A stretch of DNA of 64,000 nt from Eledone cirrhosa (lineage: Eukaryota): assembly GCA_964016885.1 (NCBI GenBank), contig OZ024746.1, positions 55,552,001-55,616,000 on the forward strand, written 5' to 3'. The notes beneath the pieces are model-generated. The model had not been told where the DNA came from. It saw only the letters and a program-made list of their open reading frames with translations, and made no database searches. The position numbers and the translations under genes were made by a program. Positions 9,396 through 51,967 of this stretch are shown here, piece after piece (positions within the stretch are counted from its first letter, which is position 1; each line of letters starts with the position of its first letter).

Positions 9396-10027
9396 ACGAT
9401 ATTAAACAAATGGAAACTATATTTATAAAACCATATTTATTTCATTATAGATATTTCGGGGATACCATACTAAAAATATGGCATGCCTTCTTCAGATAAA
9501 ATACAATATATAGATAGTTTTATAAATGATTTTGACGTATCATAAATATTGACCAACCGTTATGTAAAAAGCTGGTTTGGTAGTGAGATGTTTATAAAAA
9601 TTTAGTGTTAAGCACAGTTAAAAAGAAAGACGGAGAAAGAGAAGAATTGTATGTAAAGAAAAACAGAGAGAAATAGAGAGAGATAGGGGAGAGAGAAATA
9701 GTGAGGAGGTGAAAAAAGAGTCAACTGAGGCAACAGATGAATAATAATAATAATTCATCATACAAATTGAGAGATTTAGGAGGGAGGGAGTACTGTAATT
9801 ATTTAGTTATAGTGTTAAGGACAGTTGGGGAGGAGGCGGAGAGAGATAAAAAAAATGAAGAGAAAACAGAGAGAGAGAAAGATAGAGGTGGGGGGAAAAA
9901 GAGGTAGACCAAATAATAATTATTATATATGGGGAGGTGAGAGAAATAGGAGAGAAATAAGAGAGAAAATAAGAGAGAAACTCGAGAGGCAAAGTTAAAA
10001 CAACCGATACATAGACTTCATCATATA
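9396..10027 (-). repeat. Inverted copy of the PLE 3' region (left arm), with antisense hammerhead at 9440-9501
   Basis: Near-identical reverse complement of 13172-13795. Confidence 0.95.
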
Positions 10028-10029
10028 AT

Positions 10030-12052
10030 TTCTATCATACAAGGAATCAAATTCAAGAGAAACTTCAAAGGCCAGGACTATCTAAGAAGCATTAAGGATA
10101 ATATTTAAGGATTGGAGAGAACAGAGAAGATCTTGGTGAAATCGGAAAAACCAACAACCTTTATGGAGTGCAAAAAGAAATGTATTATGGCCTTATATTG
10201 AAAGAACTAAGGAAAAAGAACAAGGTAGCAAATAAGGACGAACTGGAAAAAATGAATGTTGAGGCATCTTGTATAATGCATGAGTTGGACATTGAGAACA
10301 AAACACAACCCTTCTTGCCTAGGAAACCCAAGATCAATATGAAAGATCACAAAAGAAATTTTGAAAATGATTTGCCAGTCAGATTGATCGCACCATCAAA
10401 ATCTGACCTGGGTAAACTTAGCAAAAACATTCTAGACAGGGTGATACAGCAAATTAAAAACTTACATAATTTACCTAACTTAAGCTTATGGAAGGGGACC
10501 GGTGAGGTTATTGAGTGGTTTAAAGAAATTAAATATAACTAATAATAAATGTATTCAACTTTTTGTGCTAAATATAACTAATAATAAATGTATTCAACTA
10601 TTGCTAACTACTATTCATCCATTACCCCTAATCTATGAATAAGGCACTAAATTACGCATTCAAACATACAGACCTAACTAGGAATGAAATGCACATTATA
10701 TTATCGGCAAGGAAAACATTGATAGAATTTAATAACCAACTATGGACTAGGGCAGATAGAGATAATAATTTCGACATCACTATGGGATCATCTGACTCAG
10801 CTCAGGTAACGGACCTTGTGGGCCTATTTATAATTAATTCGCTGCATAGAAAAATACCTGGTGTAACCGCAGGGTTATATCGTGATGACAAGCTTTTACT
10901 TATTGAAAATAATAACTCTGAACTAAATAGAAAAAGAAAACAAATTATACAATTTTTTAATTACCTTAATCTAAAAATAGAAATAGAGAATAACCATAGA
11001 ATAGTCAATTTCCTAGATGTAACACTAAATCTCATCACATGTCTTCACTATCCATTTCACAAACTAAATGAAAACTTGAATTATGTCAATTTTAACTCTA
11101 ATCACCCCAGATCTGTTAAAAATACTATAGTGAACTCTGTTCAAGAACGTATTTCAAGAATTTCATCTAATAAAAATATTTTCGACGAAAAAGCGCAGTA
11201 TTACAATGAAGCGTTAGCTAGAGCAGGATATAGTGATAAAATTAAGTACATCGATAATAATAGGCAAACTAACCAAAATAATAACAATTTTAATTACGGT
11301 AACAACTTTAACAACTATAATAGAAAATATTACAATAATTCCAAAAGCCGGAAAAGAAATAGAACTAGATATATAATATGGTTTGCCCCCCCCCCCCCTT
11401 TCTCACTAAATATTAAAACCCACATTGCTAAACTATTTGTTAATGCTCTTGACAAACGCTTCCCTAGAACACATAAATATCACTCAATTTTTAATAGACA
11501 TACTATAAAATTAACCTACTCGTCCACCAAAAATTTAGCACAAAATATTAACAGAATAAATAATAGGAATCTAAAACCTAGCCAAAATACCGATAATGGC
11601 CAAAACAATATTCAATTAAACAACTGTAACTGTAGAAATAAATCTAAATGTCCGTTAAATAACAATTGCTTAGTTAAAAATATAATATACAATTGTAATG
11701 TTAAAACTAACTTAAATTCTTTAACTATGTTGGTTCCACCTCGACAGAATTTAAACTTCGCTACAATAATCATAAGAATTCTTTCACAGACCCAAACAAA
11801 AAATCTTCAACTTCACTATGAAGCTTACTCTGGCAACTTAAACATGATAACGTTGGGTATTCGATGTTTTGGAATATTGTCTCAAAAGGGATTCCTTTTA
11901 ATTCCTCATCTGAGACATGTGAACTCTGTGTGGAGGAGATATTCTTTATATTAAAATCCAAAAATTCCCTTAATTTAAGGAGCAATTTATTCAGTTGCTG
12001 CAGGCATAGATTGAACTCAACGTTTAAATATAAATATAAATTTAAAATGTAG
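10030..12052 (+). pseudogene. PLE reverse transcriptase-GIY-YIG polyprotein, frameshifted
   Basis: KDHK..RLIAPSKSDLGKLSK, FDITMGSSDSAQVTDLVGL, GLYRDD, NFLDVTLNL, SNHP, CNC..CPL..C, CELC, CCRH in ORFs 10168-10542, 10635-11954 and 11864-12052. Confidence 0.93.
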
Positions 12053-51270: not shown

Positions 51271-51495
51271 ATGGTGGTGGTGGTAAATATATATATATAT
51301 ATATATATATACATACCATATCATTTTAATTTTATTTATTTATTTATTCTCGTTTCTGTCTCACTTTGCGCATGCGTTTGCACATATATATATATATATA
51401 TATATATATATATATATATATATATATATATATATATATATATATATATATATATATATATATATATATATATATATATATATATATATATACAT

Positions 51496-51967
51496 ACGAT
51501 ATTAAACGATATTAACGAATGGAAACAATATTTATAAAACCATATTTATTTCATTAGACATATTTCAAGGACACCAAGTTAAATTATGGTGTGCTTTCAT
51601 CAGACAAAAATATAATAAAGATCAGTTTTATAAATAAATATTGACATACCCTTAAAAAATGCAACCATTACTGTTGGAAGCTCCCGGATAGATTATCCGG
51701 GAGCTTCCAACAGTAATGGTTGCATTTTTTAAGGGTATGTCAATATTTATTTATAAAACTGATCTTTATTATATTTTTGTCTGATGAAAGCACACCATAA
51801 TTTAACTTGGTGTCCTTGAAATATGTCTAATGAAATACATATGGTTTTATAAATATAGTTTCCATTTGTTAATATCGTATTTTTACTCCACATATTTGTT
51901 GAGTGCTTTATATCAGTTATAAAAATATTTGCTTGTTGTATCCCAACAATGTAAATAGAACTTTTAC
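51496..51967 (+). mobile_element. Fold-back non-coding PLE derivative: ~185-bp arms, 3-nt loop, ~89-nt tail; relative of the 13.7-kb 3' end
   Basis: 51506-51690 is the reverse complement of 51694-51878; tail homologous to 13796-13884; (TA)n flanks. Confidence 0.92.
51775..51835 (+). ncRNA. Type I hammerhead ribozyme (mirror copy on minus strand at ~51549-51609)
   Basis: ttttgt-CTGATGA-[aag..acacca..tggtgt..ctt]-GAAA-tatgtc-TA-atgaaa. Confidence 0.82.

What the first reader, a model, noticed from the sequence alone, without database searches (positions are those of the whole stretch)
9396..51967. A recurring 'inverted arm + ~85-100-nt single-copy tail' architecture in six PLE insertions from about four families
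Seen: at 9396-13884, 13917-14692, 23956-24147, 29591-29824, 42541-43461 and 51496-51967 the end opposite the 3' tail is an inverted copy of the element's own 3' region. The copy begins ~83-98 nt inside the 3' end, and both ends abut (TA)n. Related copies use the same start point (acgatattaa at 9396 and 51496/51506; tacaatatgt at 14692 and 42541), and that point borders a short TA-like motif (cgtatat, tataat). Established: PLEs form direct or inverted pLTRs with an unduplicated tail, and internal RT initiation has been reported for a vertebrate PLE. Inference: both broken target ends prime, one at the 3' tip and one at a fixed internal site by microhomology to (TA)n, with conserved spacing across divergent families. 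This would be a defined two-site integration mechanism that stamps palindromes into microsatellites.
Basis: partly seen in the sequence, partly recalled or inferred. Interest (0 to 1): 0.85.

Follow-up and report, generated by a model that had tools for sequence, protein, structure and literature searches.

The report
Twin RNA hairpins set Penelope ends
These jumping-gene insertions have a known layout, a mirror-image arm at one end and an unduplicated tail at the other, but both ends stop a few bases before one of two copies of a small conserved stem-loop, which likely marks where the element's enzyme starts copying from each broken DNA end.

Summary
The observation mostly holds. Five of six insertions are inverted arm + 83-99-nt tail between (TA)n runs. 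The sixth (42541-43461) has no internal partner: its tip piece stops short of the arm start. Raw reads of a related animal pile up at the family-A arm start, so this is no assembly artefact. The ORF has Hydra-clade PLE motifs. The layout, (TA)n targeting and two RT start sites are published (Arkhipova 2013; Craig 2021; Frangieh 2024).

What I did not find in print is what fixes the sites. In 78+17 Hydra loci from other animals, the hammerhead-to-ATG leader typically carries two modules: a TA-rich patch, then a covarying bulged stem-loop (GCTC..YH-GAGC-ACT). Two were found in 25 of 41 leaders, at least one in 37. Twenty of 23 termini, and 12 of 13 in a second set, lie 6 nt before to 1 nt into a stem-loop. 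Tail length tracks module spacing (54-71 nt there, 83-85 in family B here). TA microhomology is enriched but does not pick the site. Two-end priming at stem-loop-bound RTs is inferred, not shown. Verdict: new variant of a known kind, with a testable cis-element.

The parts
9396..10027 (-). E1 inverted arm (family A), copy of 13172-13795; carries a second hammerhead copy (core at 9495); inner end at a TATA run of the template
10030..12025 (+). 5'-truncated, frameshifted Hydra-clade PLE ORF (RT, CxCX5C linker, GIY-YIG without CCHH, CxxC/CxH)
   Evidence: tblastn; motifs; homologs
12026..13688 (+). long AT-rich 3' region, likely the 3' UTR of the same unit (continuity only partly bridged in contigs)
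   Evidence: tables 2 and 8; inference
13689..13752 (+). minimal type I hammerhead motif of family A
   Evidence: own descriptor; not among the 150 Rfam rows shown
13795..13799 (+). site 1: 5-nt TA patch where the arm begins and where 6392 reads turn into (TA)n
13802..13823 (+). stem-loop 1 of family A (ACTC/GAGT lower stem, a compensatory form of GCTC/GAGC; 2-nt 3' bulge; upper stem)
   Evidence: descriptor scan
13796..13884 (+). E1 single-copy tail (site 1 to site 2)
13918..14692 (-). E2, non-autonomous family B unit: two-piece arm 14605-14692, upstream tip copy 14582-14606, body, tail 13918-14004
13966..13993 (-). stem-loop 1 of family B, 4 nt after the arm break
14528..14581 (-). site 2 TA patch and stem-loop 2 of family B, directly after the upstream tip copy; site spacing 85 nt and stem spacing 83 nt match the tail
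23956..24147 (+). E3 (family C): arm 23956-24005; centre 23999-24021, read as hammerhead stem II; 3' half of a hammerhead; stem-loop 1 at 24073-24099; 83-nt tail
   Evidence: stem II reading by eye
29592..29824 (-). E4 (family D): arm 29760-29824; centre is a TA palindrome read as hammerhead stem III, with a 12-nt duplication; only a collapsed stem-loop 4 nt after the site; 95-99-nt tail
   Evidence: weakest fit
42541..43461 (+). E5 (family B): long antisense piece from site 1 (with SINE inserts and a 153-bp tandem) joined to a 62-nt tip piece (43400-43461) that begins inside stem-loop 1; no self-inverted repeat
51496..51967 (+). E6 (family A): 10-nt repeated start 51496-51505, arm 51506-51690, 3-nt centre, hammerhead core at 51781, stem-loop 1 at 51885-51907, 87-90-nt tail
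4955..5085 (-). further family C copy, same 5' start as the sense half of E3, no arm, stem-loop at 5026
46369..46407 (-). 39-nt family C tip-only piece between TA runs, stopping 3' of stem-loop 1
43637..46312 (+). 5'-truncated Hydra copy (EN part 43680-44460) with decayed hammerhead near 46128, stem-loop at 46220 and about 95-100 nt from the TA-rich patch to the tip; no arm

Best explanation
These are insertions of Hydra-clade Penelope-like retroelements and their likely non-autonomous derivatives, whose ends lie just upstream of one of two copies of a conserved bulged stem-loop, and each copy likely holds one reverse transcriptase so that both broken (TA)n target ends would be primed from the element RNA, one at each site. 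Shown: the layout; two modules (TA-rich patch, 2-8 nt, then GCTC..YH-GAGC-ACT) between hammerhead and ATG; covariation of the upper stem; termini at either module; tail length tracking module spacing. Inferred: the endonuclease cuts both strands of (TA)n; the RT on stem-loop 2 copies from the tip and the RT on stem-loop 1 copies from the internal site; the TA patch aligns the primer, as in a telomerase template, and sometimes restarts (5-10-nt repeats). Both cDNAs are antisense, so they can join only through self-complementary stretches (hammerhead stems, TA palindromes) or microhomology, which yields the inverted arm. If the tip cDNA stalls at occupied stem-loop 1, the E5 type results.
For: Leaders, one per family: 25/41 two stem-loops, 12/41 one, 4/41 none (two of these were mis-called starts); coding windows 10/511, shuffles 36/2050. 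Upper-stem pairs, not used for selection, with a 2-nt bulge: Watson-Crick 53/54, 37/54, 33/54 vs 29, 16, 13.5 shuffled; no signal with bulges of 0, 1 or 3. Lower stem varies in register: GC 50, TA 4, AT in window families A and C, GCAC/GTGC in L081. Termini: 20/23 within -6..+1 of a stem (9 at stem 1, 11 at stem 2; two read by eye), 1 at -12, 2 elsewhere (binomial about 1e-16). Second set, fetched after the descriptor was set: 12/13 within -1..-6, including five arm+tail insertions with 62-67-nt tails. Window breaks: -2, -6, -8, -4, -4, -4, and family B tip -3 from stem 2. Tip pieces that end inside stem-loop 1 and have no partner arm: E5, L089, L014, L085; read joints at 13810 and 13812. Restart repeats: E6 (10 nt), L089 (5 nt), and 29 reads from 4 starts going back 11 at 13799. 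Precedent: two RT starts, both strands extended and a predicted dimer for a Poseidon element (PMC11167929).
Against: No biochemical evidence for Hydra. The descriptor was derived from the 78-locus set and widened after seeing the window's variants, so searches are not blind; only the L079-L095 set is out of sample, and several of its contigs come from one bin. Stem-loop 2 is visible for family B only; E4 has only a collapsed stem-loop; E3's own sense copy has no TA patch. L079's main copy has site 1 at both ends and L085 seems to use site 2 at both, so '1 plus 2' is not obligatory. Long arms (E1, 620 nt) need read-through with strand displacement or a second RNA. RNA versus DNA folding is only weakly resolved: G-U pairs on the sense strand 6 vs A-C 3 in upper pairs 2-3. 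Loci are related, so the P-values overstate independence.
Confidence: 0.62

Rival explanations
1. The same motif acts as DNA: the GIY-YIG endonuclease recognises it in a cDNA or tandem intermediate and cuts the TA patch just upstream, so termini are cut sites rather than RT starts.
For: Craig 2021 ascribes the tail to EN-mediated resolution. Frangieh 2024 reports that D. virilis EN needed the tail for recognition and cleavage. The TA patch resembles the target. The same coordinates are predicted.
Against: The bulged, covarying stem fits single-stranded folding. Restart repeats at the outer arm end look like initiation. In Poseidon the tail ends coincide with measured RT starts.
Confidence: 0.17
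2. One-end priming with fold-back: a single cDNA from the tip snaps back at a natural hairpin, copies itself as far as site 1 and is captured there by the other TA end (akin to the self-priming idea of Arkhipova 2013).
For: Symmetric centres in E3, E4 and E6, two of them read as hammerhead stems. Palindromes at inverted junctions were read as self-priming in PMC3846280. It may well produce some of the short palindromes.
Against: It cannot make E5, L089, L014 or L085, whose inverted piece has no template in the other piece. Site 1 is also a plain 3' terminus without an arm, for example L021. It does not explain a second conserved module.
Confidence: 0.15
3. One reading: the internal site is chosen by TA microhomology alone.
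For: A TA run of 4 nt or more precedes 27/54 stems vs 11.5 expected. E1 and the family B sites have 5-7-nt patches.
Against: Used sites have 0-5-nt runs, with equal or longer runs unused nearby. Half of the modules lack a 4-nt run. The offset from the stem is what stays constant.
Confidence: 0.04
4. Assembly artefact, or fold-back chimeras at (TA)n runs.
For: The six loci's own junctions were not seen in the read rows shown; no genome or long reads of this individual were available.
Against: Arms differ from partners by 2-6%. The same site and inverted joints occur in raw reads. The same layout occurs in unrelated assemblies.
Confidence: 0.02

Closest known systems
Hydra clade of C-terminal EN+ Penelope-like elements (Craig et al. 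2021, PMC8557442; read: abstract, sections 3, 11, 15, passages, supplement parts 2, 52, 53)
   Same: CxCX5C linker, no CCHH, CxxC/CxH, hammerhead near the 3' end, (TA)n targets; a family is already listed from Octopus bimaculoides; Penelope-13_HM is noted with an inverted 5' copy.
   Different: In the parts read and the term searches made, no tail length, start sites or leader stem-loop is given for Hydra; the tail stated for PLEs is 30-40 bp. Window families have 83-99-nt tails and 3' regions of about 1.8 kb.
Poseidon PAc of Anolis (Frangieh et al. 2024, PMC11167929; read: main text parts 1-2 of 4; supplements searched, no term hits)
   Same: Two RT start sites bracket the tail; both strands are cut and extended; AT-rich target; predicted dimer; a stem-loop at the start region.
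   Different: [quoted passage not shown] In Hydra the tail lies in the non-coding leader, each site has its own copy of a stem-loop 3' of it, and a TA patch is enriched at the site.
Typical Penelope insertion with inverted pLTR, optional tail and junction palindromes (Arkhipova et al. 2013, PMC3846280; read: 11 passages)
   Same: Inverted 5' pLTR, one-sided tail, palindromes and microhomology at junctions.
   Different: 31-bp tail, target-site duplications in non-repeat targets, explained by self-priming on an antisense template.
L1 twin priming (recalled, no call)
   Same: The second target strand primes internally and gives a 5' inversion, often with a gap (E5 type).
   Different: L1 internal sites are scattered and set by microhomology, and long duplicated arms are not typical; here the site is fixed.
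RT-loading RNA elements such as hepadnavirus epsilon or the telomerase template with its alignment region (recalled, analogy only)
   Same: A bulged stem-loop or structured flank positions the RT; a short alignment patch; occasional restart.
   Different: No homology claimed; priming here is by nicked DNA and the element occurs twice.

Membership tests
Hydra-clade PLE (E1, family A) | single ORF, RT followed by C-terminal GIY-YIG EN | tested here: met
   tblastn of 18 homologs tiles RT then EN over 10102-12022, with frameshifts; Pfam gave no hit on 5 of 5 window pieces
Hydra-clade PLE (E1, family A) | CxCX5C linker | tested here: met
   CNCRNKSKC
Hydra-clade PLE (E1, family A) | no CCHH cysteine pair between GIY and YIG | tested here: met
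   one cysteine only in that interval, across a frameshift
Hydra-clade PLE (E1, family A) | CxxC and CxH flanking the conserved E and N | tested here: met
   CELC..E..N..CRH
Hydra-clade PLE (E1, family A) | DKT in place of DKG; RWK motif | tested here: inconclusive
   E1 reads GKT in a decayed frame and lacks the RWK region; its three closest homologs have DKT; other window remnants have DKT or RWR
Hydra-clade PLE (E1, family A) | canonical hammerhead near the 3' end | tested here: met
   (own descriptor); cleavage activity not tested
Hydra-clade PLE (E1, family A) | insertion into (TA)n | tested here: met
Hydra-clade PLE (E1, family A) | generally short, under 3 kb (a tendency, not a diagnostic) | tested here: not met
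   the sense part is at least 3.85 kb although 5'-truncated, if 12026-13688 belongs to the unit
Hydra-clade PLE (E1, family A) | RT groups with reference Hydra families in a tree | not tested
   reference proteins were seen only in a supplement and compared by eye
Hydra-type non-autonomous derivatives (families B, C, D) | PLE ORF in cis | tested here: not met
   no tblastn hit inside E2-E6
Hydra-type non-autonomous derivatives (families B, C, D) | hammerhead plus leader stem-loop module | tested here: inconclusive
   B: both stem-loops, no complete hammerhead; C: 3' half of a hammerhead plus stem-loop; D: remnants only
Canonical PLE insertion unit | inverted 5'-truncated copy with a one-sided tail | tested here: met
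   5 of 6 insertions
Canonical PLE insertion unit | tail of 30-40 bp | tested here: not met
   83-99 nt in the window; 62-67 nt in L079, L088, L089
Canonical PLE insertion unit | tail ends are RT start sites | not testable with these tools
   needs biochemistry

The most novel reading that the evidence does not exclude
Hydra-clade PLEs carry a duplicated, structure-conserved RT-loading stem-loop with a telomerase-like TA alignment patch, so one RNA loads two RTs that heal both ends of a (TA)n break at programmed positions; this cis code sets the PLE tail, the inversions, the stall-type deletions and the unit-length stops, and could be transplanted to program two-ended RNA-templated insertion.
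Probability: 0.4. Interest if true: 0.82.

Novelty: new variant of a known kind. Interest (0 to 1): 0.66.

Why it matters
How PLEs make their tandem and inverted ends and their tail is an open question; Craig 2021 names it as the next task. A short, covarying element that sits at a fixed offset from both termini in dozens of families turns it into a direct experiment: shift, break or restore a 25-nt stem-loop and map cDNA starts. It also gives curators a rule for Hydra termini (published consensus ends fall at either site, read by eye). It would explain why the last 200 nt of family A are some 30-fold or more over-represented relative to the ORF in a related genome. Because PLE RTs are sister to telomerase, a structured loading site with an alignment patch and occasional restarts also bears on RT evolution.

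Tried and rejected
No whole genome is held for the window, so no genome-wide copy census was possible. Pfam: 0 families on 5 window ORF pieces. Rfam at E<=5: microsatellite-driven hits among the 150 rows shown, no hammerhead among them; 82 rows not shown. Viral contigs: 80 pattern matches, none related. Sequencing runs: best share of words 0.36, no RNA holder listed, so nothing can be said on expression. MAFFT did not keep the short variable-loop modules in register, so no covariance model was built and pairs were counted on anchored positions instead. MFE folds of the long window 3' ends gave the stem-loop clearly in family B, the 46220 family and the 5026 copy, only partly in family A and not in E3, so it is not always the isolated minimum. 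Structure prediction of a homodimer was not available. E3's arm aligned against the 4955 copy stopped early (-19) and the L092 terminus against a diverged reference stopped at -21; L092 is counted as a miss. [quoted passage not shown]
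Full report
1. Setting. The window is 66% A+T and rich in (TA)n and other microsatellites. It holds at least six remnants of one kind of PLE ORF: 1-1050, 2700-4330, 10100-12020, 43680-44460, 51270-49300 (minus) and 59030-60870. 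The one named homolog is from Argonauta hians at 40% identity; a cephalopod host is a weak inference from that and from a SINE that I recall as octopus-like. No genome was held. The motifs match the Hydra clade as defined in Craig 2021 section 11.

2. The observation. E1, E2, E3, E4 and E6 have an inverted arm whose partner ends 83-99 nt inside the other end; single-piece arms are 94-98% identical to their partners, and TA runs lie on both sides. E5 differs: a long antisense piece from the family B internal site is joined to a 62-nt tip piece, with no overlap. In raw RAD reads, 6392 reads turn into (TA)n right after 13799, against depth 20802 at 13785 and 15446 at 13822. In contigs of run X1, summed depth falls from 1.55 million at 13785 to 0.70 million at 13822. 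Ten opposite-strand joints are listed, with scattered inner positions. Limits: RAD reads start mostly at one site (13706) and may hold duplicates; the runs share at most 0.36 of the words; weaker rows were not shown; families B-D and the six loci's own junctions were not tested.

3. What is already known. The inverted 5' copy plus one-sided 30-40-bp tail, and (TA)n targeting: Craig 2021. The same layout with junction palindromes and a self-priming hypothesis: Arkhipova 2013 (passages). Two RT start sites bracketing the tail, both strands cut and extended, predicted dimer: Frangieh 2024. So the layout and the idea of two sites are not new. Earlier notes of this scan on shark-type PLE fold-backs reached the same view (unchecked AI notes).

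4. What fixes the site. I fetched 78 Hydra loci (the best 80 of 434 relatives; 63 families). Many are tandem, so the template beyond the termini can be read. Between hammerhead and ATG lie two copies of a module: a TA-rich patch, then GCTC, a variable stem-loop, a 2-nt bulge, GAGC and ACT. Counting one leader per family among the 41 families with 130 nt before a called ATG: 25 have two stem-loops, 12 one and 4 none (two of the four are mis-called starts). Controls: 10 of 511 coding windows and 36 of 2050 shuffles. The pattern was drawn from these data, but the upper-stem pairs were not used for selection, and they covary only with a 2-nt bulge: 53, 37 and 33 of 54 Watson-Crick against 29, 16 and 13.5 shuffled. 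Module spacing is 54-71 nt, median 61, in 28 families. Of 38 candidate 3' ends, 10 had no same-family template and 5 were contig ends or self-matches. Of the 23 left, 20 break between 6 nt before and 1 nt into a stem (9 at stem 1, 11 at stem 2; L012 and L027 read by eye), one at -12 and two elsewhere.

5. Out-of-sample check. A later scan gave 17 further loci, apparently animal DNA inside bacterial bins. With the descriptor nearly unchanged, I measured the 13 termini that had a readable template: 12 fall at -1 to -6. Five are arm-plus-tail insertions between TA or ATAC repeats, with 62-67-nt tails. Several of these contigs come from one bin. By eye, the published consensuses agree: Hydra-1_Ajap ends 2 nt before stem 1 and shows both modules, Hydra-1_Crog is cut 6 nt before a variant stem 2, Hydra-2_Amil and Hydra-2_Ajap end about 25 nt after stem 1; Hydra-1_Obim is unclear.

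6. Back in the window. A scan, widened to admit the window's A-T outer pair, found 8 stem-loops against 1.2 in shuffles. Five are in families A, B and C (13802, 51885, 13993, 24073, 5026), one is at the 3' end of the 43637 Hydra copy (46220), one is in a further TA-bounded element (47045) and one is unexplained (8837). Arm breaks lie at -2 (E1), -6 (E6), -8 (E3), -4 (E2, E5) and -4 from a collapsed stem in E4. E2 shows the template beyond its tip: a TA patch, then stem-loop 2; sites 85 nt apart and stems 83 nt apart, matching the tail. The longer tails here thus likely reflect wider module spacing, shown directly for family B only.

7. TA microhomology. It is enriched before stems (run of 4 or more in 27 of 54 vs 11.5; of 5 or more in 17 vs 3.9; one of the 54 includes target TA), but it is not decisive: used sites have runs of 5, 3, 0, 3 and 2 nt, with equal or longer runs unused nearby. 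It most likely aligns the primer at a site chosen by the stem-loop.

8. Mechanism. Shown: termini at two structurally marked sites. Inferred: each stem-loop loads an RT, and both target ends are extended. Three patterns favour this over fold-back. (a) Tip-derived pieces that end inside stem-loop 1 and have no partner: E5 at +14, L089 at +3, L014 at +6, L085 at +7, and read joints at 13810 and 13812, as if blocked by a bound protein. (b) Site 1 serves as a plain terminus (L021). (c) Short restarts at the outer arm end (E6 10 nt, L089 5 nt, 29 reads from 4 starts). Two antisense cDNAs can pair only through self-complementary template, and the centres of E3 and E4 read as hammerhead stems II and III (by eye); this fits fold-back equally well. 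Against a strict scheme: L079's main copy has site 1 at both ends, L085 seems to have site 2 at both, and long arms need strand displacement or two RNAs. The main rival is that the motif guides the endonuclease on DNA; sequence alone cannot exclude it.

9. Verdict. Real, mostly as described, and a known class of structure. The added value is a duplicated cis-element, not found in my eight literature searches (subscription papers and Repbase notes not covered), that predicts both termini and the tail length across the Hydra clade. New variant of a known kind; interest 0.66.

Noticed in passing
window 1-1050, 2700-4330, 43680-44460, 49300-51270 (-), 59030-60870: Five more Hydra-type ORF remnants, so six in 64 kb. 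The 48709-51286 copy ends about 22 nt after a hammerhead with no tail and no arm.
   Followed up: partly
L001, L019, L021, L063, L086, L007; L014, L027, L064, L066: 5' ends of full-length copies fall at or just before a stem-loop module (L001 -14, L063 -12, L021 at site 1, L086 at stem 1, L007 inside stem 1) or just upstream of the hammerhead, giving near unit-length insertions, as if the RT stops at the next bound module on a tandem or circular RNA.
   Followed up: partly
Craig 2021 supplement S1/S2: Hydra consensus length minus hammerhead position spreads into a short group (about 87-130) and a long group (about 150-210), as expected if curators ended some at site 1 and some at site 2.
   Followed up: partly
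window 32860-33058 and 42325-42525; 33092-33218 and 48412-48598; 46765-47140: Further short TA-bounded families; the first has a decayed hammerhead-like start and the last a stem-loop at 47045 about 90 nt from its end. Probably more PLE ends.
   Followed up: no
window 56500-56670: Old palindromic element with arms at both ends and no tail, next to TA; a MITE or a both-ends-same-site insertion.
   Followed up: no
window 2616-2723, 16076-17231, 23210-23500, 28163, 34880, 36970, 39760, 41153-41600, 42870-43360, 52600, 55315: About 15 copies of a 190-bp SINE-like repeat; inside E5 its head plus family B sequence forms a 153-bp x3 tandem.
   Followed up: no
window 33480-33940 and 63147-63606: Unidentified 460-bp repeat pair, 70% alike, in opposite orientation.
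   Followed up: no
L079-L095: Bacterial genome bins contain contigs full of animal-type PLEs and microsatellites, probably host contamination.
   Followed up: no
L046:2541-2990, L008:2800-3120, L079:6014-7146, window 13884-13918: The TA run at one insertion's 3' end is reused as a target by another family, giving tail-to-tail stacks.
   Followed up: no
window 13849-13861 and 51935-51947: A second small hairpin (GTTG/CAAC) is conserved in the family A tail, downstream of stem-loop 1.
   Followed up: no
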